From the sequence record ON470617.2: 64,000 nucleotides of DNA. One strand, 5' to 3'. Positions 9,185-54,001 of this stretch are shown here, piece by piece; position 1 is the first letter of the stretch; each line of letters begins with the position of its first letter. The notes beneath the pieces are model-generated. The model worked only from the letters and a program-made list of their open reading frames with translations. It was not told where the DNA came from and did not search any database. This DNA comes from Escherichia phage vB_EcoM-813R1. Both the position numbers and the translations under genes were made by a program.

Positions 9185-9224
9185 TGCTTAAATTATGCCG
9201 GTATAGCGAAATTTTGAGCATATT

Positions 9225-9521
9225 ATGGAAATTGATTTTTCATACTCTCCTGAAACGATAGAACGAAGATTCGAAATAATTGGATGTAAAACTATTTCAG
9301 AGGAGCATTATTGGATTCTCTATGATGCCAATACATGGTTATGTGCCTTAGCAGAATGTCGGCCATCGTTATGTGCAGGGGAGGGAGGACTTCGACATAA
9401 GGTGCTGGCTACACTTGAAGTGAACACGTTACGATATTGGTGTGTCGAAATACTTAGGGATAACAAAGAATTACATTTATTATTGCTGAATAAGTGTGCG
9501 CCTCTGCGCAGGAAAGCATAA
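9225..9521 (+). CDS. Hypothetical 98-aa Cys/Trp-containing protein
   Basis: Isolated ORF in the variable region between the structural operon and the DUF3800-like module; no recognisable motif. Confidence 0.3.
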   Translation: MEIDFSYSPETIERRFEIIGCKTISEEHYWILYDANTWLCALAECRPSLCAGEGGLRHKVLATLEVNTLRYWCVEILRDNKELHLLLLNKCAPLRRKA

Positions 9522-9687
9522 GAAAACCCAACCGCCATACTGGAATTATCAGAAGAATATGTGCGGAAAGTTATAGCTAGCTATTGAAAAGCTAAAGTAG
9601 ATCGGTTAGATTTACCTTACTCATCTACCATGCGTAGAAAGAGCGATCGAACCCGATACATAGCAATATGTGTCGGGTTCAGCTTTT

Positions 9688-10167
9688 TTATGTCCCAAGT
9701 GCTCTTTTTCTGCTTTGTTTGAGTGTTCTGATTTTACTGTCATAGGTTACAACATAGGCTGTTTTGAGAAGCCAATAGTCTCTACGTGCGGATAGCACAA
9801 CAACGTAGTTTTCACACTCGTTCCAGATTACCCACTCTTCAGTTGGTCCTCGTCTTTCAGACCAACATGATATATCGCAATGGTCATAATTCCTTATCAT
9901 ATGCGCGATCCAGCGGATCCGCTTACACCGTTCAAGATCAGGTATTCGTTCTTCTTCTATTTTTCCCTCTGATACTAAATGCCAAAATCCGAACTCTTTC
10001 CCATCATATTCCGGTGAATAACGTAATCGAACAGGGAGACCCTTAAACGTTATATTAGAGATTAAAATATCTTCTCTAACAACATCATATACATCGTCTA
10101 TATACTCTTGCCAACTTCCATTGAAGTACAATAAATCTGGCATTTGAAGCATCAGCGAGCCTCCCAC
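9688..10167 (-). CDS. Hypothetical 159-aa protein, downstream partner of the DUF3800-like gene (candidate accessory/defence module)
   Basis: ORF directly downstream of and overlapping the DUF3800-like gene on the same strand; AT-rich; Trp/Cys-rich with no motif I can assign. Confidence 0.4.
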   Translation of the reverse strand: MGGSLMLQMPDLLYFNGSWQEYIDDVYDVVREDILISNITFKGLPVRLRYSPEYDGKEFGFWHLVSEGKIEEERIPDLERCKRIRWIAHMIRNYDHCDISCWSERRGPTEEWVIWNECENYVVVLSARRDYWLLKTAYVVTYDSKIRTLKQSRKRALGT

Positions 10168-10854
10168 ACGAAAATATTAAATTTACTTTCTGTTGGAAGA
10201 GTGCTTTTTAGTAACTCCCTGTTTGTATGTGATTTTATCCTGTTTATGACTTGGATTTTTCCCGCGTTGCTATTCATTCCTCGATGAACGTAGCCTAACG
10301 CACCAATGAAAAGATCCGTTAGCTGCAATTGTTGCACTTCATGAGATCGTATATGTTGAATTCTGTTTATCGACTCATGATTGTAATCATAGCGATCATT
10401 GTGAAGAACTCCTCTTAATTTCTCAATTTTTTCAATACCTAAAGTATCTTTTATATCTAGGTAGATATTGTATGTGTTGTTACTTTCTATTATGTTTTTT
10501 AAGACATAAAAAACATCTTATAATAGAAAGTATTGTGATCTTGATGGAATCGAGCATGGTCCAGTTGCTCTTTATCAGGAACAACAACACCTCTAAAGCG
10601 CAATGCTGGGTTGCTGAAGAAGTAATCTACGACCTCTAAGTAAAATTCAACTTTGGACGCAGATACTTTAGTCCACTTGATTTCGAAATCAGGTTTTAAA
10701 TTGTGTTTTAATTTTAATCCCTTGATGTCTCTAGCAATTTTTTTGTGATAGTGCCAGGACACCAAAGCGCACCCAATACCATGACTTTATTATGATCATT
10801 TAGTAGGTGACAGGATTCATCGCAGAATACATTAAATGTTCTTCGGTTCAACAT
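10152..10854 (-). CDS. DUF3800-like protein (N-terminal FCDES motif, C-terminal QLTDLFIGA motif); apparently frameshifted at a T7 run near 10740 and again near 10490
   Basis: Minus-strand start (+10852-10854) gives MLNRRTFNVFCDESCHL...; joins ORF 10499-10765 through a 7-nt homopolymer; downstream piece contains QLQLTDLFIGALGYVH. About 233 aa in total; strongly AT-rich. Confidence 0.45.
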
Positions 10855-11002
10855 GTTAACTCCACTTATTGTTAGGTAGAATTGTCCGTTAGTTGTTTAT
10901 TAATTGCAATAATGGGACGTTCTGATTTGCTAACTACGTCATCTTACCAGGACGCCTATGAGTTTTCCTCATGGCAAACTAGAGGTGTTGAAAGTATGCA
11001 TG

Positions 11003-12781: not shown

Positions 12782-12859
12782 TTTTTCTGACTCGATCCAG
12801 ATCGGGTTGGACGATCTGCTCAGAAACCTGCCAGTTTGCTGGCAGGTTTTTTTCTTTTG

Positions 12860-13903
12860 TTAACCTATTGCTACTGGTTTTAACAAACCAGCATCAAGTA
12901 GCTTGCGAGTTAACCACTGCTGGCCTTTACCCGTTAATTGGGGCGTCAGCCGTATCTGGTAGCCATTTTCATCATCCAGCACCACTTCTTTCACCGTGAA
13001 ATACCCGGCGTTGATGTACTGTTGGCGCGGTACGTTTTTGCGCGCACCAAAAGCCATGAGAATGCCGTTCTGGCGCAACCATGAGAAAAGGGCGTTTTGC
13101 TTAAGTCCAACGACCTTTGCAAAGTTCCCGATCAGGATTCCATTGGCCGCTGATACCCGGTCGGCAAAATCGACTTTAGGGGCTGCGGCCACCAGCTGCT
13201 GTTCCAACTGCATTTTCTGTTCTGCCAACTCGGCAGCCAGGCGTAGAGCTTCTGGTAATGTTTGGGGGATCGATGGGGCAGGGGAGTTTGCCTGCTGCAA
13301 TTCTTCCAGTTTGTCGATCAGCGAACGGCGGACCGCTTTTGACTCACGCGCGGCGACTCGCAAGGCTTGTTTGTAGGTCATGGTGATGACCTCAAAAGAG
13401 CGCCCAGCCCTTGTGCCATGGGATTTTGCACTTTTTGTGTAAAATTCACCTTCAAGTTCATCGAGTATTTTTTCGATGAATTTATTGTTTCTAACCTCTG
13501 GTTCTCCACATAACTTGCGTGCCTCATTGACCATCTTCAACAATGTTTGGCTGTCGATTGTGTCTCCGGTGTTGGGGATGACATTCACGGCTGGTGTTGG
13601 CGTAGCTGACGTAACAGGTGCTGGTTTCTCAACATTCAAATTTTTACCGGTCACTCTATGTGCCTCCTTTCTCATTTCTGCTGCCACTGTTGCGTAACGT
13701 AGACGTCCTTGTTCAATCAAATAATCCCTGATCTCGGCTATCAGTAGCCTGTTGATCACAGCCTTATCTGTTCGGGTATAAAAACGTCTGGTTATCATGA
13801 AATAGTTAGCAATTGCGCCGGGGATCTCCCGTGTCGGCATACAGGCAGTATGCAAGGCGATCGCTTCGGCTATTTCATTACGGGTGACGAGAGGTGTTTT
13901 CAT
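12860..13903 (-). CDS. ant1: Antirepressor Ant (immI region)
   Basis: ORF 12860-14005; likely start MKTPLVTRNEIAE at 13903, immediately after the icd stop (translational coupling); C-terminal KilA-C/Ant domain shared with KilA. Confidence 0.6.
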   Translation of the reverse strand: MKTPLVTRNEIAEAIALHTACMPTREIPGAIANYFMITRRFYTRTDKAVINRLLIAEIRDYLIEQGRLRYATVAAEMRKEAHRVTGKNLNVEKPAPVTSATPTPAVNVIPNTGDTIDSQTLLKMVNEARKLCGEPEVRNNKFIEKILDELEGEFYTKSAKSHGTRAGRSFEVITMTYKQALRVAARESKAVRRSLIDKLEELQQANSPAPSIPQTLPEALRLAAELAEQKMQLEQQLVAAAPKVDFADRVSAANGILIGNFAKVVGLKQNALFSWLRQNGILMAFGARKNVPRQQYINAGYFTVKEVVLDDENGYQIRLTPQLTGKGQQWLTRKLLDAGLLKPVAIG

Positions 13904-14118
13904 AACCCCCTGAACGTCGGCAGAGAAGGGGAGGCTCCAGTAACTAAGTGAATTGCGCGAGTTAGTTGAAAAACGGGCAGTAAAAATGCAGGGGCCATCA
14001 GGCAATTGAGAGCGTGCTTCGTCTTCTGTTGCTGCGATAACGAAGTGATAGTGGTGTTTTTACAGGAATAGAAACGCCAGATGAATTCTTGGCGTGCGCA
14101 AGGATTGGCATTAACCAT
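13900..14118 (-). CDS. icd: Icd-like small protein (interference with cell division), translationally coupled to ant
   Basis: About 72-codon reading frame starting MVNANPCARQEF... and ending on the codon adjacent to the ant start; position between the c4-like RNA region and ant. Confidence 0.5.
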   Translation of the reverse strand: MVNANPCARQEFIWRFYSCKNTTITSLSQQQKTKHALNCLMAPAFLLPVFQLTRAIHLVTGASPSLPTFRGL

Positions 14119-14275
14119 AGTTACGGCCTCATTCGTAGGTTTAACAACCTGCGCCCCGCTGCTAAACGGGTGGCAGGACGTGACGGGGTTAGCAGACTGG
14201 CACGAATGAAACCAGCAGGCCGAAGCCTCCCCATCACGCCCCACCATAATTCGGGCGTAACGTGGTTTTACGGAC

Positions 14276-14365
14276 ACAAAAATTCCGCAATATCGGATAT
14301 CTGCGGTTGTCCGCATTCGTATTCAGGCTGCTAAACCCGGTCGCAGAATTTGCTACGACGGCGGA
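14276..14365 (-). ncRNA. c4: Candidate c4-type antisense RNA with intrinsic terminator
   Basis: Between the C1 operator/promoter (about 14434) and icd; minus-strand hairpin CCGCAGATATCCGATATTGCGG followed by AATTTTTGTG (top strand 14275-14306). Exact 5' end not determined. Confidence 0.35.
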
Positions 14366-14433
14366 ACTATAAGCCTGAACGATTAAAAGGTCAATATGAT
14401 GCGAAAAGATAGCATTCGCGACTTAAAAATACA

Positions 14434-14450
14434 AATTTATTAGAGCATTA
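14434..14450 (-). promoter_or_regulatory. C1 operator (16/17) with overlapping second degenerate copy, at the immI promoter
   Basis: Top strand aaatttattagagcatt followed by atttgtgcaataaatgcac. Confidence 0.6.
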
Positions 14451-14545
14451 TTTGTGCAATAAATGCACAAATGGATCTAATAACCTCTTTTTTTAAAGGC
14501 GAAAATATGTACCCTAAATGGGTTATAAGGCAGGTGAGATTATAA

Positions 14546-14677
14546 TGAGAAGACTATTACTACCGTTATTATTTATGGCCGGGACTGTTAATGCAGCATC
14601 AAGCGTAAAGGAGATTTGTACCGATTATACGAAATACCTTGGGCACGTTTACGCCTTTGCGATCAATGACTATTAAT
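14546..14677 (+). CDS. 43-aa secreted peptide (signal peptide MRRLLLPLLFMAGTVNA)
   Basis: Short ORF with RBS and classic signal peptide, first gene of an AT-rich plus-strand cluster. Confidence 0.3.
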
Positions 14678-14679
14678 CC

Positions 14680-15015
14680 ATGCGTAGGAGTGGATTTATG
14701 CTGATTCGTTTGTTTTTAGTGCTTTCCTTTTTAACATTTAATGTTTTTGCTGATGAAGTTGACTTTTCGAAGGTAGATTGCAATTCAGTGGAAACAAGAA
14801 AAGCTCTTATTGAAGAATATAACGAAATATTATCGTCATATGGAATAACAGTGGTTGATTCTTATAATCAAAAAACTATTCAGAAAGGAATAAATAAACT
14901 GGTTTGTTATGGTGTTTACCAATATTCAGATGGCTCTTCGGAGTATGTTATTTATAAAGCATACCCAAATAGTCTTGGTGAATTGATTAGTGAGTTTAAA
15001 CCGATTAATGAGTGA
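14680..15015 (+). CDS. Small secreted protein (signal peptide; about 90 aa mature)
   Basis: 111-aa ORF with hydrophobic N-terminus LIRLFLVLSFLTFNVFA; AT-rich codon usage. Confidence 0.4.
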   Translation: MRRSGFMLIRLFLVLSFLTFNVFADEVDFSKVDCNSVETRKALIEEYNEILSSYGITVVDSYNQKTIQKGINKLVCYGVYQYSDGSSEYVIYKAYPNSLGELISEFKPINE

Positions 15016-15022
15016 ATGGAAA

Positions 15023-15616
15023 ATGAAATTATTTAATGTAATAACATTTTGTTGTGCTATTTTTGCTGGAAGCGCGATAGCTGATAATAAATTGCCAGAT
15101 TGGCTTTCTACTTCAAAAAAAGATTATGATTTAGTAAGGGTGTTCTATTTGTCTGGATTTGCCTCGAAAGCAATGAATAATCAATTTGGTTATCATTTTC
15201 CATCTGAGTTGGTTAATGATTTTAAAGATAATGAATTTGCCGCTCAGGAAAAATGGAATACAATTTCAATTCTATATGGTGAAATAAAATCCATAAGAAT
15301 GGTGAATAATGAACCAATTGTAGAGTTATTTACTCCAGGGGAAAATGCAACGCCACTAAATTATATCAAATTGAAAGTGTTGGATTCAAAACAAAACTCT
15401 CTGTTAAAACTAAAAAAATGGGATGATATATATGCAGTGTGCTCCGGTGCTAATTTTAGGTTAGTGCCAATTCTGAGCAACTGCACTCCAGCAACTGACG
15501 TCATTGATGCTGCACTCTCTTTTCTGGTGAATATATGTTCCCTGCTTTTGATTCTTTTTCACCTACTAAGCAAAACGTCAAATATATATTCACAAATCAA
15601 GATCCTGTTCAGATGA
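15023..15616 (+). CDS. Secreted protein, possibly SimC-like superinfection-exclusion factor
   Basis: Start MKLFNVITFCCAIFAGSAIA (signal peptide) inside ORF 14990-15616; about 198 aa; position between immI and pmgC matches the P1 sim locus. Confidence 0.4.
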   Translation: MKLFNVITFCCAIFAGSAIADNKLPDWLSTSKKDYDLVRVFYLSGFASKAMNNQFGYHFPSELVNDFKDNEFAAQEKWNTISILYGEIKSIRMVNNEPIVELFTPGENATPLNYIKLKVLDSKQNSLLKLKKWDDIYAVCSGANFRLVPILSNCTPATDVIDAALSFLVNICSLLLILFHLLSKTSNIYSQIKILFR

Positions 15617-15801
15617 TGAATTTTATAGGGTACCTATCCTTAGTCGATACAACGAAGGATAAGAATAAAATGGATATGGTTCGTAAGTGTACGCCTTGGA
15701 AGCCGGAATGTTCACAACAATTCGTTGATGTAATGGAAGGATTTGATAACATCATGTATAAATATGAGAGGGAATTTAAAAATTACATAGAATTAAAATA
15801 G
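15535..15801 (+). CDS. Hypothetical small protein (62-88 aa)
   Basis: ORF overlapping the end of the preceding gene; likely real start at the internal MM (about 15613); followed by a terminator. Confidence 0.3.
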   Translation: MFPAFDSFSPTKQNVKYIFTNQDPVQMMNFIGYLSLVDTTKDKNKMDMVRKCTPWKPECSQQFVDVMEGFDNIMYKYEREFKNYIELK

Positions 15802-15833
15802 TATTTGAAAGGATAGTCAATTTAAGTTTTAAC

Positions 15834-15864
15834 AAAACGCCCATTAAAGGGCGTTTTATTGTTT
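15834..15864 (+). terminator. Rho-independent terminator
   Basis: aaAACGCCCattaaaGGGCGTTttattgtttt. Confidence 0.65.
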
Positions 15865-15986
15865 TACTCAAAACAATCTGATTATGTGATAACCATATCA
15901 TATTCCTCATTCCACCTACACTGATTACCCCCCAGACAACAACATTCCTACTCAATGAACAAATGACTACTCGTAGAATCGGTTAA

Positions 15987-16577
<591 letters not shown>

Positions 16578-16587
16578 GGGGGCTGAT

Positions 16588-17199
16588 ATGGGGCTTAATG
16601 TTGCTTCAGTAAAGTCTTATGTATCTTCGGCATTAACGACGACATTATTTGGCTCCGGCGTTGGTGAGCGGGAAGTTGGTAAGCTGACGTCAATCATCAT
16701 GAACAAAATGCTGTTCGCGCAAGGATGGCAGTTCTCTGTCGAAGTTGATGGTCTGGAGGGGGCAGACTTCTTTGCTAAAGACATTACCTACCACGATTAC
16801 AGCATCGAATATGAAACGATTAAAATCGGCGGAGGGAATATCCTTCAGCCAACGGAGCGTTCGCCTGGGCAGATAACAATGATGGTCAGGGATACCGTTG
16901 ATGGCCTCGTTTTGGACTGGTTTAAGACGGCAAAAAGTCGGGTGATCAATCCGGACGGTACCGGGAATATACCGTCTAAATATTTGCTCAATGTGCGTAT
17001 TTATCGGTTGCTGTCCTCCGGTTTAACCAAACTGGAAAATGAGATGACGGTATTCCCGGTCACTACCGGCGATGTCACCTATGCGCGGGATCAGGTTACG
17101 GAATTTAAGTCATTCCCAATGACCTTCGCATTGCACAGCACGTTTAACCAATCCTCAAGTTCTTTGGCTTCCCTTCTGGGCTTTAGTTTTTCTCTTTGA
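16588..17199 (+). CDS. Probable tail tube protein (P1 tub position)
   Basis: 203-aa intact ORF with RBS gagggggc; synteny-based. Confidence 0.35.
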   Translation: MGLNVASVKSYVSSALTTTLFGSGVGEREVGKLTSIIMNKMLFAQGWQFSVEVDGLEGADFFAKDITYHDYSIEYETIKIGGGNILQPTERSPGQITMMVRDTVDGLVLDWFKTAKSRVINPDGTGNIPSKYLLNVRIYRLLSSGLTKLENEMTVFPVTTGDVTYARDQVTEFKSFPMTFALHSTFNQSSSSLASLLGFSFSL

Positions 17200-17213
17200 A
17201 TTAAGGAGCAAGG

Positions 17214-18164
17214 ATGCTTTTACCCCTTTTCCCGCTACCATCGCGGCCAACTGAATTGATCCAGTTCCGTCAGCCAAATATTGCTGATGCGATGCGTTTC
17301 AACTCGATAACACTGGAGGAACAAGAACAACAGACAACGGCGTATTTAAAAGCCTTGCTGGCTGAACCCGCGAAACATGATCCCCTGACATGGACGGCGC
17401 AGGACCGGATTACCGCGTTATGGTGGATATTTACCGGCTCCCGTGAAACACCGGTCGAGACATTCACCTACACCTGTAAACATTGCGGTAAAGAGCATTA
17501 TTACGATTGCGATATGAATGCTCTGGCTGAAGATATCCAGGTCCTGGAAGTGGAACCTTTCATTGACGATATTGAGGTGTCTGTAGAGGAGTACCTTATC
17601 AATGGCGTATCGTGCCGCTTGATGGTTGGGCAATGGAAATGCTGGAGATGCGCCGTGCAGCATTGCCACCTGAAGACGACGCGGAATTCAAAGAAGCGAT
17701 CGTTGATTTGCGTTTTTGGGAATTCGCTTATCAGTGTGAGCTTTATAACGATGTTAGCGGTACTCGTGAAGATCAGGCTGAGCGTCGTTATGAAACGATT
17801 AAACGGATGGCCATTGATACTGAATTTATGAAGCTGGCTGCACACATCCGGCTGGCTCATGAAAAGCTCGAACATGGTTTACCGTGCTACATCGATAAAG
17901 GCGAAATGCGTCTTCGTCTCCCGCCGCACAAATGCCCAAACCAGGATACAAAGGAGTCCACAGAGGGTGCGTATACCCGTCTGTGGGTGCCCTTTCGGGC
18001 TACCGACTTCATTCCACAGGTGGGGATTGAAAAGCTATCAGACCTTAGTGTCCAACCTGGTTTTGTATGGGGGTATACCGATTCAGGACGCTGAAAGGCT
18101 CACTGAATCCTATGCGTTTTTCCTGTTGGAGAAACTGGAAGAAAAACTTAAACCGAAGCGGTAG
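17214..18164 (+). CDS. Putative morphogenetic protein (P1 pmgB position), with two apparent frameshifts (about 17620 and 18070)
   Basis: ORF 17214-17831 turns into Cys-rich junk after about 17620, while ORF 17612-18094 continues protein-like; C-terminus again switches frame at gggggtat (about 18065). Confidence 0.35.
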
Positions 18165-18175
18165 GCGATAAGATC

Positions 18176-21100
18176 ATGGAAAGAAAAAACGCCAACATTG
18201 ACGATGTTATAAGGACAGTTGAAACCGCCAGCGCGAAAGAGCTGGAAGAGCTTGCAGGTATTCGGGAAGCTGTTGAAGATTTGAAAGGGGAACGAGTTGC
18301 AACTGTTGATCCTGTCTCTCGCAGTGTGTCGGCATTAAATCGCACAATCGAAAATTCACGTCCTGACTTTGTGACCAATGTGCCATCAGTGGACTCTATT
18401 GTTGACGCAATGAAACGGCTTAATTTAGGGGACGTTTCTCGTATACGGAGGACAAAGTCACTAACCGTGAACAGCAGGCTGCACCAACAGCGCACAATCC
18501 CCCAAATAGACGAAGAGAGGCAATAACAGAGGATGTTAAAGCACAGCGGTTAGAAACGGTCAAACTCGCTCGTGATTTGAAAGGGGAACGCGTTGCAACG
18601 GTTGACCCAGTATCTCGCAGTGTGTCGGCATTAAATCGAACAATCGAAAATTCCCGGCCAGACTTTGTGGCCAATGCGCCATCAGTGGACTCTATTGTTG
18701 ACGCAATGAAACGGCTTAATTTAGGGGGCGTTTCTCGTATACGGGAGGACAAAGTCACTAACCGTGAACAGCAGGCTGCACCAACAGCGCACAATCCCCC
18801 AAATAGACGAAGAGAGGCAATAACAGAGGATGTTAAAGCACAGCGGTTAGAAACGGTCAAACTCGCTCGTGATTTGAAAGGGGAACGCGTTGCAACGGTT
18901 GACCCAGTATCTCGCAGTGTGTCGGCATTAAATCGAACAATCGAAAATTCCCGGCCAGACTTTGTGGCCAATGCGCCATCAGTAGACCCTATTGTTGACG
19001 CAATGAAACGGCTTAATTTAGGGGACGTTTCTCGTGTAGTTCAGGAGGGCATTGCTCAACAGGAACAGCAGGCCAAATCAACTACACCAAAGGGTAAAAA
19101 AAGACGCAGGAAGGCTATAACAGAAGATGTAAAGGCGCAACGGACCGAAGCAGCCGAACACGCTCGCGAAATGTTCGGTCAAAAAGGCGGTGCGCAAAAA
19201 GCCAAAACCAACGCGATGCGCGTGGTCGTTTTATTGGAAAGTCAGGGAGTAAGGCCGCAGCGGAAGATGCCCGTGCTGAACGTGCTGAAAAGGCCAGGCG
19301 CAAAGAGGATGATGAGCGTCTAAATGCTGAATCAGGTTTATTAAAAAAACTGTCAAAAGTAGCTGAAGGCATAGGTAACCCTTCAGAGACTCGTGCCGTC
19401 GATGCGTTAGGTTATGCCGTTGCTGGTCCATTGTGGGCAGCAGGGAAGGAGCTTGGCGGGATATCAAAAGAAGTTGGTGGATCGCTTAATGGCGCCAGAA
19501 AGTCTATTGCCGATGTGATTCGTGGCAATGACGATAACAGCCGTAGAAAAGGTTTTTTAGGCGTAAATCGCAAAATAGTGCCGATGTCGTTCAGGTTAAC
19601 ACCCAAAAACGGACGGTTCAGGAACTTCAGGAGCAGACCAGCGAAATTAAAGAGGGCAATGACAAGATTCTCAGCGCCCTTGATCAGATAGCCAAAAACA
19701 CCGGGAAAAAGAAGGGCGGCTTGCTGTCCAAACTATTTAGCCTGTTAGGGAAGGGGGCCGGTGGCGTCGCGTCGTTGTTAATGGGGCGTGGCATGCTGAA
19801 AAAGCTGGAGCACTCGCTTTTGGCGCTCTGGGGGTAAAGAAACTTGTAGGAATGCTACGCGGTGGTGGTAAGAAGACTCTCGCCCATGAAGGCGGAGATT
19901 TGGCTGCCCGGGCAGCAGGTAAACTTGGATTAAAGGCAGTTGGTAAAGGGGCGTTACGCGCAATTCCCCTAGTCGGCACAGTGGCTGGAGGTATTTATGA
20001 TGCGGTAACCGGTTGGAATGATACAGAAGCGCAACGTCGAGCGTTTGGGCTTAAATCAGGACAAGATCCATCATTCCAGCAAAAAGCCGCTTATACGTTA
20101 GCTAATATTCTTGATATGGGGGGACTGGTATCTGGTATTAGCAGCGCCATTGGTGAGGTTCTCAAATCACTTGGATTTGAGGATATCGGCAATATGTTGC
20201 AATCATTTTCGACGGAAAGTATTGCACAGGCCATTGATAGTGGGGTTACCAACTTAGAAACATATATTTCTAATCTTGGCGACACCATTTCTACCAAGTT
20301 CGATGATTACACAGCAAAGATTGGTGATGCTGTTTCAGCATGGTTTAGCGATACATCTAATAAGTTGCTTGAAAAGCTGGATGCCATAAAAGACTTCTTT
20401 ACTGTCGATAACCTGAAACAGGTTTTCAGTGATGCAATTGATAGTGCAATTGATTTCATTAAGAACCCGGGGAAACACATTAAAGAGGCGGCTGGTAATA
20501 TTTGGGATGGGGTTAAAAATTTACCCGGTAAAGCAATAGATGCAGCGTTTGATGCCGTTAAAAATACCCCTGCGGCAATAATTGTATCAAAAATACCCAA
20601 TCCGATCGGCGAGGCTAATGCGAAAGAAATCACTCCAGAGTTAAAAGCTCCGGTTAATAGCCACCAGGAGACGTCTGATTCTAAAACTGAATCCGATGCC
20701 AAACAGAGTAATATTGCTACCCGCGTGATAAATGCGGCACTGGACACGGCGAAAGATAGCAATAAAACAGTTAAACAAACTGCCAATCAGATTATCAATG
20801 CAAATGCCGTAGAAACGGGCAATAGCGCGTTGCAGAAAATTGATAAAGCTATTGGTCAAAATAGCTCGTCATCATCCTCGCTTAATACCACTGGCACCAG
20901 GAATGACATTCAGAAAGCTGCGGATACCTACAATAATGGCAACTTGGATGTAAAAGTCGGAAGTCTTGGAGCTGAAGGTAAGGCAAATCTCGATAAGTTG
21001 GCTCCGTATTTTGCTGAACTAGAGAATAAATATAGCCTTCCTGAAGGTACTCTTTACGCGATCGCTGCAACTGAATCTGGTGGTGATCCTAACGCAAAAT

Positions 21101-25334: not shown

Positions 25335-28300
25335 ATGAATGACGTTACAGTTGTTACATCGGTTACTTACCCATCACCCGAGTCGTTGGCTCTGGTGGCT
25401 GATGTGCAATACCACGAACCATATCTGTCAGCCGCTCTAAACCGAAAATTCAGGGGAATTGTTGACCCGGGATTTTATGCTGGTTTCTTGCCTAAGCCTG
25501 GCGGTGGGATGAAACTGTTAATCACCTCAGTGGATGGTGATAAAACCGCTGGCGCGGCGTCAGTGAATATTGGTGAATTCTACCAGGTAACTATTCAGCA
25601 GCGTAAGGATATTTCTCTTGCACTTAGCGCAGGTAAGAAATATGCAATTGTGCTGAAGGGAAGATACCTCCTTGGAGAAGATTCTTATCAGGTTAATACC
25701 GCGTCACATATTCATGCGGCTGAATTTGTTGCCAGAACCTATACCGATTCATATCAGTTAGGAGATGGGGAACTGCTTGTTTGTACGGTGAATATCCCTG
25801 CTGGCGTATCTGCTATTACTCAGGAAATGATAGATGTATCCGACCGCATCGATCTCACGATAGGCATTGAAATTTCCGACTCTGTAACCAGTACCAGAAG
25901 TGATGTCGCTGCAAGTTCGCTGGCAGTTAAAAAAGCCTACGATCTGGCGAAAAGCAAGTATACGGCGCAGGATGCAAGCACAACGCAAAAGGGATTAGTT
26001 CAGCTCAGTAGTGCTACTAACAGCACGTCTGAAGTGCTGGCCGCCACACCGAAAGCTGTCAAGGCTGCATATGACCTGGCTAACGGGAAGTATACGGCCC
26101 AGGATGCAACCACGACACAAAAAGGGATAGTTCAGCTCAGTAGCGACACCAACAGCACTTCTGAAACATTAGCTGCAACGCCAAAAGCGGTTAAAGCTGC
26201 ATACGATCTAGCAGCCGGAAAGGCACCATCCAGTCATACACATCCCTGGAATCAGATCACTGGTGTGCCAACAGCTTCATTGACAGCGAAAGGCATCACT
26301 CAGCTCAGTAGCGACACCAACAGCACTTCTGAAACATTAGCTGCAACTCCAAAAGCGGTTAAAGCTGCATACGATCTAGCAGCCGGAAAGGCACCATCCA
26401 GTCATACACATCCCTGGAATCAGATTACTGGTGTGCCAACAGCTTCATTGACAGCGAAAGGCATCACTCAGCTCAGTAGTGCCACTAACAGCACGTCCGA
26501 AGTGCTGGCCGCCACACCGAAAGCAGTCAAGGCAGCATATGACCTGGCTAACGGGAAGTATACGGCCCAGGATGCAACCACGACACAAAAAGGGATAGTT
26601 CAGCTCAGTAGCGACACCAACAGCACTTCTGAAACATTAGCTGCAACTCCAAAAGCGGTTAAAGCTGCATACGATCTAGCAGCCGGAAAGGCACCATCTA
26701 GTCATACACATCCCGGAATCAGATTACTGGTGTGCCAACAGCTTCATTGACAGCGAAAGGCATCACTCAGCTCAGTAGTGCCACTAACAGCACGTCCGAA
26801 GTGCTGGCCGCCACACCGAAAGCAGTCAAGGCAGCATATGACCTGGCTAACGGGAAGTATACGGCCCAGGATGCAACCACGACACAAAAAGGGATAGTTC
26901 AGCTCAGTAGCGACACCAACAGCACTTCTGAAACATTAGCTGCAACTCCAAAAGCGGTTAAAGCTGCATACGATCTAGCAGCCGGAAAGGCACCATCTAG
27001 TCATACACATCCCTGGAATCAGATTACTGGTGTGCCAACAGCTTCATTGACAGCGAAAGGCATCACTCAGCTCAGTAGCGACACCAACAGCACTTCTGAA
27101 ACATTAGCTGCAACTCCAAAAGCGGTTAAAGCTGCATACGATCTAGCAGCCGGAAAGGCACCATCCAGTCATACACATCCTGGAATCAGATTACTGGTGT
27201 GCCAACAGCTTCATTGACAGCGAAAGGCATCACTCAGCTCAGTAGTGCCACTAACAGCACGTCCGAAGTGCTGGCCGCCACACCGAAAGCAGTCAAGGCA
27301 GCATATGACCTGGCTAACGGGAAGTATACGGCCCAGGATGCAACCACGACACAAAAAGGGATAGTTCAGCTCAGTAGCGACACCAACAGCACTTCTGAAA
27401 CATTAGCTGCAACGCCAAAAGCGGTTAAAGCTGCATACGATCTAGCAGCCGGAAAGGCACCATCCAGTCATACACATCCCCGAATCAGATCACTGGTGTG
27501 CCAACAGCTTCATTGACAGCGAAAGGCATCACTCAGCTCAGTAGTGCCACTAACAGTACGTCTGAAGTGCTGGCCGCCACACCGAAAGCTGTCAAGGCTG
27601 CATATGACCTGGCTAACGGGAAGTATACAGCCCAGGATGCAACCACGACACAAAAAGGGATAGTTCAGCTCAGTAGCGACACCAACAGCACTTCTGAAAC
27701 ATTAGCTGCAACGCCAAAAGCGGTTAAAGCTGCATACGATCTAGCAGCCGGAAAGGCACCATCCAGTCATACACATCCCTCGAATCAGATCACTGGTGTG
27801 CCAACAGCTTCATTGACAGCGAAAGGCATCACTCAGCTCAGTAGTGCCACTAACAGCACGTCCGAAGTGCTGGCCGCCACACCGAAAGCAGTCAAGGCAG
27901 CATATGACCTGGCTAACGGGAAGTATACGGCCCAGGATGCAACCACGACACAAAAAGGGATAGTTCAGCTCAGTAGCGACACCAACAGCACTTCTGAAAC
28001 ATTAGCTGCAACTCCAAAAGCGGTTAAAGCTGCATACGATCTAGCAGCCGGAAAGGCACCATCCAGTCATACACATCCCTGGAATCAGATCACTGGTGTG
28101 CCAACAGCTTCATTGACAGCGAAAGGCATCACTCAGCTCAGTAGTGCCACTAACAGCACGTCTGAAGTGCTGGCCGCTACACCGAAAGCTGTCAAGGCTG
28201 CATATGATTTGGCTAATGGAAAGCAAGCGGCAGACGCTACGCTCACTGCTCTAGCGGCACTAGCTACCGCAGCAGATAAACTCCCTTATTTCACAGGGGT

Positions 28301-53842: not shown

Positions 53843-54001
53843 ATAATGCATTGCTTCTCAATGCGGATTAAACTTCCCCAAATTATGGCTGTTTGCTCAC
53901 CGAGCATCGCTCAAAGAAGCACGATTCTTCAAACATATAGATAGTGATAGTGCCACAACTTCTGGCTCTAACGGGCTGGGGAGGCGGCGCTTTGTTGCTA
54001 A

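What the first reader, a model, noticed from the sequence alone, without database searches (positions are those of the whole stretch)
14500..15860. AT-rich cluster of three or four small secreted proteins
This stretch is markedly AT-richer than the flanking genes and encodes consecutive plus-strand ORFs that each begin with a classic signal peptide (MRRLLLPLLFMAGTVNA; MLIRLFLVLSFLTFNVFA; MKLFNVITFCCAIFAGSAIA), ending in a strong terminator. It occupies the position of the P1 sim superimmunity locus, whose product is a processed periplasmic protein. Periplasmic proteins expressed from a prophage are typical superinfection-exclusion factors.
Basis: partly seen in the sequence, partly recalled or inferred. 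Interest (0 to 1): 0.5.

Follow-up and report, generated by a model that had tools for sequence, protein, structure and literature searches.

The report
P1 sim superinfection-exclusion operon, already known
This AT-rich stretch is the well-known simA-simB-simC superinfection-exclusion operon of a P1-like phage-plasmid, and the apparent "fourth gene" is only the tail of simC, cut off by what is almost certainly a one-base sequencing error.

Summary
Window 14450-15957 is the lowest-GC 1.4 kb of the 64 kb window (0.33 against a mean of 0.47). It carries three plus-strand genes with Sec-type signal peptides and ends in a strong hairpin terminator. It is 96.9% identical in DNA to P1 simA-simB-simC, 99.8% identical to IncY P1-like plasmids, and has the same neighbours as in P1.

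There are three genes, not four. The 88-aa ORF at 15535-15801 is the C-terminal third of simC. One T is missing from a T5 run at 15520-15523. Adding it back gives a simC with no differences from plasmid NZ_CP093228. The window shows 31 such deletions in 36 kb, mostly in homopolymers. The T4 allele is absent from 127 complete E. coli genomes and occurs in 1 of 139 plasmids, itself an error-ridden assembly. I therefore read it as an assembly artefact.

Small additions: SimC is a near-orphan whose core resembles a PF12869 "tRNA_anti-like" OB fold, and it has two conserved cysteine pairs. SimB models as a cystatin-like fold. P7-type relatives carry a different envelope-protein cassette in the same slot.

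Already known; low interest.

The parts
14433..14449 (-). C1 repressor operator Oc4 (formerly Op51). It marks the left edge of the variable cassette. The divergent c4-icd-ant promoters lie to its left.
   Evidence: Position transferred from the P1 annotation. The window reads aaatttattagagcatt. Homology between P1 or the window and P7 stops just to the right of this site.
14455..14481 (+). Predicted sigma-70 promoter PsimA. This is a prediction only, carried over from the P1 record.
   Evidence: P1 annotation 'predicted sigma 70 promoter PsimA' at L001 3156-3182, mapped to the window through alignment A1. The simple consensus scan did not call it on its own.
14545..14676 (+). simA: a 43-aa pre-protein (MRRLLLPLLFMAGTVNA|AS...). 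P1 annotates a 52-aa form starting at 14518.
   Evidence: A GGTGAG ribosome-binding site lies 8 nt upstream of the ATG at 14545. phrog_3933 matches at E 1.3e-23. Only 3 relatives were found among 5.8 billion proteins.
14698..15015 (+). simB: a 105-aa pre-protein (signal peptide ...NVFA|DE) with 2 Cys in the mature part. P1 annotates a 111-aa form starting at 14680.
15023..15801 (+). simC (the sim gene proper): 259 aa once the missing T is restored. As sequenced it reads as a 197-aa fragment (15023-15616, out of frame from codon 168) plus the 88-aa ORF at 15535-15801.
   Evidence: With one T added it has 0 differences over 780 nt from simC of NZ_CP093228 and 11 aa differences from P1 SimC, with dN/dS 0.20. 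phrog_14355 matches at E 1.5e-178.
15520..15523 (+). T4 homopolymer. It is T5 in P1, in 138 of 139 plasmid records and in 127 of 127 complete E. coli genomes. This is the site of the frameshift and is very probably a sequencing error.
15834..15866 (+). Intrinsic terminator of the sim operon: AAAACGCCC-ATTAAA-GGGCGTTTT followed by ATTGTTTT. The A run before it and the T run after it would allow it to act in both directions.
15961..15979 (+). Late promoter LPsit (-22 box and TAGAAT -10). It marks the right edge of the variable cassette and starts the pmgC-tub-pmgB-sit tail operon.
   Evidence: Position transferred from the P1 annotation. Homology with P7 resumes at about 15958.

Best explanation
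Window 14450-15957 is the simA-simB-simC operon of a P1-like (IncY) phage-plasmid. It is a low-GC accessory cassette sitting between the C1 operator Oc4 of the immI region and the late promoter LPsit.

Shown here:
- All three products carry Sec-type signal peptides with A-X-A-type cleavage sites and no lipobox, so they are predicted to be soluble periplasmic proteins.
- Mature SimC consists of an N-terminal helix, a central OB-fold domain (about residues 60-156) related to Pfam PF12869 and PDB 3f1z, and a helical C-terminal domain.
- SimC has two family-conserved cysteine pairs (C140/C154 and C223/C230), as expected for periplasmic disulfides.

From the literature: sim/simC is called the superinfection-exclusion gene (PMC2409434, PMC9177967), and Sim may prevent superinfecting phages from injecting DNA into the cytoplasm (PMC8546580). 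From my memory of Kliem & Dreiseikelmann 1989 and Maillou & Dreiseikelmann 1990, which I could not read here: the block comes after adsorption and before DNA reaches the cytoplasm, and Sim is processed in a SecA-dependent way.

Inferred, not shown: SimC acts in the periplasm by binding either a tail-tip or tape-measure component (Sit) or the host component used for inner-membrane passage. SimA and SimB are accessory factors.

The split of simC into two ORFs comes from a single missing T in a T5 run. This is an assembly error, not biology.
For: Identity and position: 96.9% to P1 simABC over 1701 nt, with the P1 annotation; 99.8% to IncY plasmid NZ_CP093228; C4 RNA and its a1b1 targets immediately to the left.

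Export signals.

SimC fold:
- PF12869 scores E 0.0053 on P1-type SimC, residues 62-154. Relatives P0012 and P0014 pass the Pfam cut-off at 53.8 and 25.9 bits. They are linked to SimC by phmmer at E 3e-8 and 2e-4.
- The best viral-structure matches are 'tRNA_anti-like' phage proteins.

Selection: dN/dS is 0.20 against P1, including the part after the frameshift.

Artefact:
- Against NZ_CP093228 the window has 27 substitutions but 31 single-base deletions in 36 kb. 27 of the 31 fall in runs of 3 or more bases, and others fall at CCWGG sites.
- In 12801-18200 there are 0 substitutions and 7 deleted bases.
- The T4 allele occurs in 0 of 127 complete E. coli genomes and 1 of 139 plasmids. That one record has 34 gaps in 5.3 kb.

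Function from the literature: PMC8546580, PMC2409434, PMC9177967. The genes are non-essential for lytic growth (PMC10695390). The region is a known low-GC variable region of P1-like phage-plasmids (PMC9603915).
Against: - Taken literally, simC is interrupted in this sequence, so this copy could be a real pseudogene. Without reads this cannot be excluded.
- No dedicated signal-peptide predictor was available; the cleavage sites come from a rule-based check.
- The SimC model is only of medium confidence (mean pLDDT 63.9, from a 7-sequence alignment).
- SimC itself scores below the Pfam cut-off, and the window's own variant gave no Pfam hit at E <= 1.
- The primary sim papers (Devlin 1982, Kliem 1989, Maillou 1990, Lobocka 2004) are not in the library. 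The details of the phenotype rest on secondary citations and my memory.
- As I recall those papers, exclusion was seen with multicopy sim, so its strength at prophage copy number is uncertain.
- Nothing here identifies SimC's binding partner.
Confidence: 0.9

Rival explanations
1. The 1-nt deletion is real. This plasmid carries a simC pseudogene that makes a 197-aa protein with a hydrophobic out-of-frame tail (LVNICSLLLILFHLL...), and exclusion is lost or altered.
For: The sequence as given has T4. One other public record has the same allele. Protein databases hold similar frameshifted SimC fragments, such as P0011 with the same ...LFLVNICSLLLILF tail.
Against: The same window has 31 homopolymer-type deletions in 36 kb against 27 substitutions. 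These also break the essential tail gene pmgB (at 17587) and disturb the icd/ant1 junction (at 13905). The only other T4 record is an even poorer assembly. 265 other records carry T5. Apart from this base, simC has no differences from an intact copy.
Confidence: 0.07
2. The T run is a programmed -1 ribosomal frameshift site or a slippage-based phase switch, yielding both a short and a full-length SimC.
For: A -1 shift of tRNA-Phe on T_TTT_C (15520-15524) would restore the SimC frame. This follows from the sequence alone.
Against: There is no X_XXY_YYZ heptamer: the preceding TCT codon would re-pair on CTC. No downstream stimulatory structure was looked for or is known. A 4-5 nt run is too short for efficient slippage. 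Essentially all relatives encode the protein in a single frame.
Confidence: 0.02
3. The cassette is sim, but self-exclusion of P1 is not its natural role at prophage copy number. It would instead be an envelope-acting accessory cassette that protects the lysogen from other phages or colicins, or otherwise alters the envelope. The P1 exclusion seen with multicopy clones would then be an overexpression effect.
For: - The slot is a swap site. P7 and SJ46 carry an unrelated outer-membrane lipoprotein plus a DUF5384 secreted protein there.
- 139 plasmids carry sim, 168 carry the P7 cassette, and 556 carry the flank.
- The low GC points to horizontal acquisition (PMC9603915).
- The sim genes are dispensable for lytic growth (PMC10695390).
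- From memory, the phenotype needed multicopy sim.
Against: Published work assigns P1 exclusion to sim. Purifying selection (dN/dS 0.2) fits either role. Nothing here points to a specific alternative target.
Confidence: 0.2

Closest known systems
Bacteriophage P1 sim (simA, simB, simC), GenBank NC_005856 46786-48070 and M34382
   Same: The same locus. 96.9% nucleotide identity over the whole cassette, and the same gene order, flanks, signal peptides and terminator. SimB has no amino-acid differences from P1. SimC differs at 11 of 259 residues.
   Different: Eleven SimC substitutions (A40V, L59F, P82S, V84L, K97E, I119V, D125N, G133W, S146R, S243N, G250R) and one missing T at 15520-15523, judged to be a sequencing error.
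P7 / SJ46 cassette Upf50.5 (outer-membrane lipoprotein) + Upf50.0 (DUF5384 secreted protein)
   Same: It occupies exactly the same slot between Oc4 and LPsit, reads in the same direction, and both products have signal peptides.
   Different: No sequence similarity to SimA, SimB or SimC. One product has a lipobox (LLSGC) and the other is a long charged coiled-coil-like protein. Its function is unknown.
PF12869 'tRNA_anti-like' OB-fold proteins, e.g. PDB 3f1z (Klebsiella putative nucleic acid-binding lipoprotein)
   Different: SimC scores below the Pfam cut-off, is not a lipoprotein, and carries an extra 100-residue helical C-terminal domain. No function is established for PF12869, so the match names a fold and not a mechanism.
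Envelope-located superinfection-exclusion proteins of other phages (T4 Imm/Sp, P22 SieA, TP-J34 Ltp, T5 Llp, phi80/HK022 Cor); comparison from general knowledge
   Same: Prophage- or phage-encoded proteins acting at the envelope that block a step between adsorption and DNA arrival in the cytoplasm.
   Different: No sequence relationship was found. PADLOC has no model that hits SimA, SimB or SimC. Ltp, Llp and Cor are lipoproteins or outer-membrane proteins, and Imm and SieA are inner-membrane proteins. SimC is predicted to be a soluble periplasmic protein. One Ltp-type 'host cell surface-exposed lipoprotein' appeared among the viral fold hits, but with poor superposition (TM 0.30/0.23).

Membership tests
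P1 sim (simABC) superimmunity operon | Sequence identity to P1 simA, simB and simC | tested here: met
   96.9% nucleotide identity over 1701 nt with 100% coverage. SimC matches at 248 of 259 aa and SimB has no non-synonymous differences. phrog_14355 and phrog_14329 match full length.
P1 sim (simABC) superimmunity operon | Position between the immI operator Oc4 / c4-icd-ant and LPsit-pmgC-tub, transcribed away from c4 | tested here: met
   P1 annotation transferred. C4 RNA and a1b1 found by Rfam at 14166-14372(-). pmgC and tub homologues start at 16011.
P1 sim (simABC) superimmunity operon | SimC made as a precursor with a cleavable Sec signal peptide | tested here: met
   Rule-based check: K2, hydrophobic core VITFCCAIFA, cleavage site AIA|DN after residue 20, no lipobox. 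No SignalP-type tool was available. Processing itself is not testable here.
P1 sim (simABC) superimmunity operon | Uninterrupted simC reading frame | tested here: inconclusive
   The frame is broken in the window as given (T4 at 15520-15523). The pattern of 31 homopolymer deletions in 36 kb and T5 in 265 other records indicate a sequencing error. Reads are needed to settle it.
P1 sim (simABC) superimmunity operon | Exclusion of superinfecting P1 after adsorption | not testable with these tools
   Known only from the literature.
Pfam PF12869 tRNA_anti-like (OB fold) | HMM score at or above the gathering cut-off (23.5 bits) | tested here: not met
   P1-type SimC scores 16.8 bits at E 0.0053 and P0002 scores 15.4 bits. 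The window-type SimC gave no hit at E <= 1. Distant SimC relatives P0012 (53.8 bits) and P0014 (25.9 bits) do pass.
Pfam PF12869 tRNA_anti-like (OB fold) | Five-stranded OB barrel that superposes on a solved family member | tested here: met
Lipoprotein-type exclusion factors (Ltp, Llp, Cor) | Lipobox [LVI][ASTVI][GAS]C at the end of the signal peptide | tested here: not met
   No lipobox in SimA, SimB or SimC.

The most novel reading that the evidence does not exclude
SimC's periplasmic OB-fold domain may be the working part of the exclusion. It would capture either the incoming DNA end or the tape-measure/transglycosylase protein Sit as it crosses the periplasm. By extension, the large and uncharacterised PF12869 'tRNA_anti-like' family of exported proteins and lipoproteins, common in prophages, would be a widespread class of superinfection-exclusion proteins. 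The evidence here (a fold match, weak sequence links and phage-encoded structural neighbours) allows this reading but does not test it.
Probability: 0.15. Interest if true: 0.55.

Novelty: already known. Interest (0 to 1): 0.12.

Why it matters
It matters little beyond correct annotation. The sim operon has been known since 1982-1990 and is annotated in the P1 reference genome. Its low GC content and variable presence among P1-like phage-plasmids are already published.

Three points are useful in practice:
- The window comes from an assembly with frequent homopolymer deletions. Split or short ORFs anywhere in it, including simC, pmgB and the icd/ant1 junction, should not be read as biology.
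- RefSeq labels these genes only 'hypothetical protein', although they are simB and simC.
- SimC's mechanism is still unsolved. The OB-fold assignment and the two conserved cysteine pairs give a concrete starting point for experiments.

Tried and rejected
- Fourth independent secreted protein: rejected. The ORF at 15535-15801 has no signal peptide or ribosome-binding site and aligns with the C-terminus of P1 SimC.
- Lipoproteins: rejected, no lipobox.
- Programmed frameshift or phase variation at the T run: considered unlikely. The run is short, there is no slippery heptamer, and T5 is found in 265 of 266 other records.
- Known defence-system models: PADLOC gives no hit.
- Direct Pfam scan of the window-type proteins: nothing significant. 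The PF12869 link appeared only through P1-type SimC and distant relatives.
- PDB search by sequence, with the SimC family profile and with P0012: nothing meaningful.
- Deep homologue searches: SimC has 4 hits among 5.8 billion proteins and 13 among 1.84 billion representatives. SimB has 12 hits and SimA has 3. This was too few for a deep alignment, hence the medium-quality SimC model.
- Diversifying selection on SimC: not seen (dN/dS 0.20 against P1).
- AlphaFold-database fold search: library unavailable.
- Lobocka et al. 2004 (the P1 genome paper) and the primary sim papers: not held in the library.

Full report
**1. The observation**

The stretch is as described.
- GC is 0.30-0.37 across 14350-16000, against 0.45-0.55 on both sides.
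- At 0.329, the 1.4 kb starting near 14400-14500 is the lowest of 626 sliding windows in the 64 kb (mean 0.469, sd 0.048).
- Three consecutive plus-strand ORFs begin with the quoted signal-peptide-like sequences.
- A rule-based check finds a basic N-region, a hydrophobic core and a small-X-small cleavage site in each. SimA has VNA|AS after residue 17, SimB has VFA|DE after residue 18, and SimC has AIA|DN after residue 20. None has a lipobox.
- The cluster ends in a 9-bp GC-rich hairpin with a T tract at 15834-15866. It folds at -13.7 kcal/mol, with z = -4.0 against shuffles.

**2. What it is**

This is the P1 sim locus itself.
- Megablast of 14300-16000 covers 100% of the query at 96.9% identity on phage P1 (NC_005856 46587-48289). 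The annotation there reads simA, simB, simC.
- The original 1990 'sim region' entry M34382 also matches, at 96.1%.
- The closest records are IncY P1-like plasmids of E. coli at 99.8%, such as NZ_CP093228. There the genes are labelled only 'hypothetical protein'.

The surroundings are those of P1.
- To the left, on the minus strand, lie ant1/ant2, icd and the C4 antisense RNA. Rfam places RF01695 at 14166-14251 and the a1b1 targets at 14320-14372.
- The C1 operator Oc4 is at 14433-14449.
- To the right are the late promoter LPsit (15961-15979) and pmgC, tub, pmgB and sit.

The window is therefore part of a P1-like phage-plasmid, and the finding is its sim operon.

**3. Three genes, not four**

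In P1 and in NZ_CP093228, simC is a single ORF of 259 aa (264 aa in the P1 annotation, which uses an upstream ATG). In the window it appears as 15023-15616 plus 15535-15801. The alignment shows one missing T in a T5 run: CTCTC-TTTTCTGG at window 15520-15523. Restoring that T gives a simC with no differences over 780 nt from the NZ_CP093228 copy.

The deletion is very probably not biological.
- Against NZ_CP093228, the first 36 kb of the window have 27 substitutions but 31 single-base deletions and 1 insertion. 27 of the 31 deletions fall in homopolymers of 3 or more bases, and others fall at CCWGG sites.
- Between 12801 and 18200 there are 0 substitutions and 7 deleted bases.
- These deletions also break pmgB at 17587 and remove two C's at 13905, at the icd/ant1 junction. 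That explains the odd 381-aa TTG-started ORF.
- A 61-nt probe across the site finds the T4 allele in 0 of 127 complete E. coli genomes and in 1 of 139 plasmid records. That single record, E. fergusonii NZ_CP070875, has 34 gaps in 5.3 kb relative to the window.

This is the signature of uncorrected long-read homopolymer errors. A real pseudogene cannot be excluded without reads; I give it about 7%.

**4. What is known about function**

- Papers in the library call sim/simC the P1 superinfection-exclusion gene (PMC2409434; PMC9177967).
[quoted passage not shown] 1982 and Kliem & Dreiseikelmann 1989.
- A CRISPRi screen scored simA, simB and simC as non-essential for lytic growth (PMC10695390).
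- A comparison of 77 P1-like phage-plasmids lists simC-simB-simA as one of eight highly variable regions and notes their low G+C (PMC9603915).
- From memory, not verified here because the primary papers are not held: Sim is processed in a SecA-dependent way, adsorption is normal, and exclusion was seen with multicopy sim.

**5. What the tools add**

(a) The cassette has sharp boundaries. P1/window and P7 sequences diverge immediately after Oc4 and rejoin at LPsit. In that slot P7 and SJ46 carry an unrelated pair: an outer-membrane lipoprotein (Upf50.5, lipobox LLSGC) and a secreted DUF5384 protein (Upf50.0). In PLSDB, 556 records match some part of the 14300-16000 query, which takes in the conserved flanks. 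Of these, about 139 carry simC and 168 carry the P7 cassette. The site is therefore a swap locus for exported proteins.

(b) All three Sim proteins are near-orphans.
- SimC has 4 hits among 5.8 billion clustered proteins and 13 among 1.84 billion representatives. The most distant full-length relative is 39% identical.
- SimB has 12 hits, including a 59% variant.
- SimA has 3 hits.

(c) SimC's central part is a divergent OB fold.
- PF12869 'tRNA_anti-like' scores E 0.0053 on P1-type SimC residues 62-154, which is below the Pfam cut-off.
- Two distant SimC relatives pass the cut-off, at 53.8 and 25.9 bits.
- The best matches among viral models are phage 'tRNA_anti-like' proteins.
- The four cysteines of mature SimC (C140, C154, C223, C230) are conserved in every family member that covers them. 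The two cysteines in the signal peptide are not. This fits two periplasmic disulfides.

(e) simC is under purifying selection against P1 (dN/dS 0.20), including the part downstream of the frameshift. No PADLOC defence model matches any of the three proteins.

**6. Mechanism**

Most likely, the operon is transcribed rightward from a promoter next to Oc4 and stops at the hairpin. This promoter is predicted only. SimA, SimB and SimC are exported by Sec and released into the periplasm. SimC then blocks superinfecting P1 between adsorption and arrival of DNA in the cytoplasm.

The status of each step is as follows.
- The export signals, the fold and the cysteines are shown here.
- The exclusion phenotype comes from the literature.
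- The molecular target is my inference. Candidates are the tape-measure/transglycosylase Sit, another tail-tip component, the DNA end, or a host inner-membrane factor. None of these is tested.

**7. Verdict**

The feature is already known, and interest is low. The residual novel angle is the possible link between PF12869 OB-fold exported proteins and exclusion.

Noticed in passing
window 1-36200 (for example 887, 3718, 8148, 10737, 13905, 14487, 15519, 15927, 17587, 19195, 30671, 33124): Against the 99.8%-identical plasmid NZ_CP093228, the window has 31 single-base deletions and 1 insertion but only 27 substitutions. Nearly all deletions fall in homopolymers or at CCWGG sites. This looks like an unpolished long-read assembly, so short or split ORFs anywhere in the window are suspect.
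   Followed up: yes
window 17214-18095 (pmgB) and 12860-14120 (ant1/icd): pmgB reads as a 205-aa ORF instead of 293 aa because of a missing G at 17587. Two missing C's at 13905 disturb the icd/ant1 junction and produce an artificial 381-aa TTG-started ORF.
   Followed up: partly
window about 18277-19035 (inside sit, the tape-measure/transglycosylase gene): The window aligns to NZ_CP093228 in two overlapping blocks offset by 297 nt. This means the window has one extra copy of a roughly 297-bp tandem unit inside sit. P1 Sit (3423 bp) is shorter than the NZ_CP093228 copy (3720 bp), so tape-measure length seems to vary by repeat number among P1-like elements.
   Followed up: no
window 26000-28223 (tail-fibre gene): Many internal repeats of about 300 bp and multiples, 94-98% identical to one another, lie inside the long tail-fibre ORF.
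   Followed up: no
window about 9200-10900: A second low-GC island (0.32-0.38). In NZ_CP093228 it holds a DUF3800 protein and a hypothetical protein on the minus strand, next to repL. This corresponds to the variable rlfA/rlfB region of P1-like elements (PMC9603915).
   Followed up: no
window about 53900-58100: A third and larger low-GC island (0.34-0.37 over about 4 kb). I did not examine it.
   Followed up: no
L005 3932-4996 (P7) and L006 3932-4996 (SJ46): In the sim slot, P7-type elements carry an outer-membrane lipoprotein with a glycine-rich segment plus a DUF5384 secreted protein rich in charged residues. The cassette is at least 99% conserved in 168 plasmid records and its function is unknown. 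It could be an alternative exclusion cassette.
   Followed up: partly
simA, window 14545-14676: SimA (43 aa) matches only positions 1-41 of the 213-position profile phrog_3933 (E 1.3e-23). It may be the N-terminal remnant of a longer exported protein and not a complete gene product.
   Followed up: no
public protein collections (P0003, P0004, P0006, P0011): Several database 'proteins' related to SimC are frameshifted or chimeric fragments. P0011 carries the same out-of-frame ...LFLVNICSLLLILF tail as the window, so the same T-run error recurs in other public assemblies.
   Followed up: partly
L003 35121-36018 (about window 35390 onward): A TnpB-family RNA-guided endonuclease gene is annotated downstream of darA in the closest plasmid. 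I did not examine it in the window.
   Followed up: no
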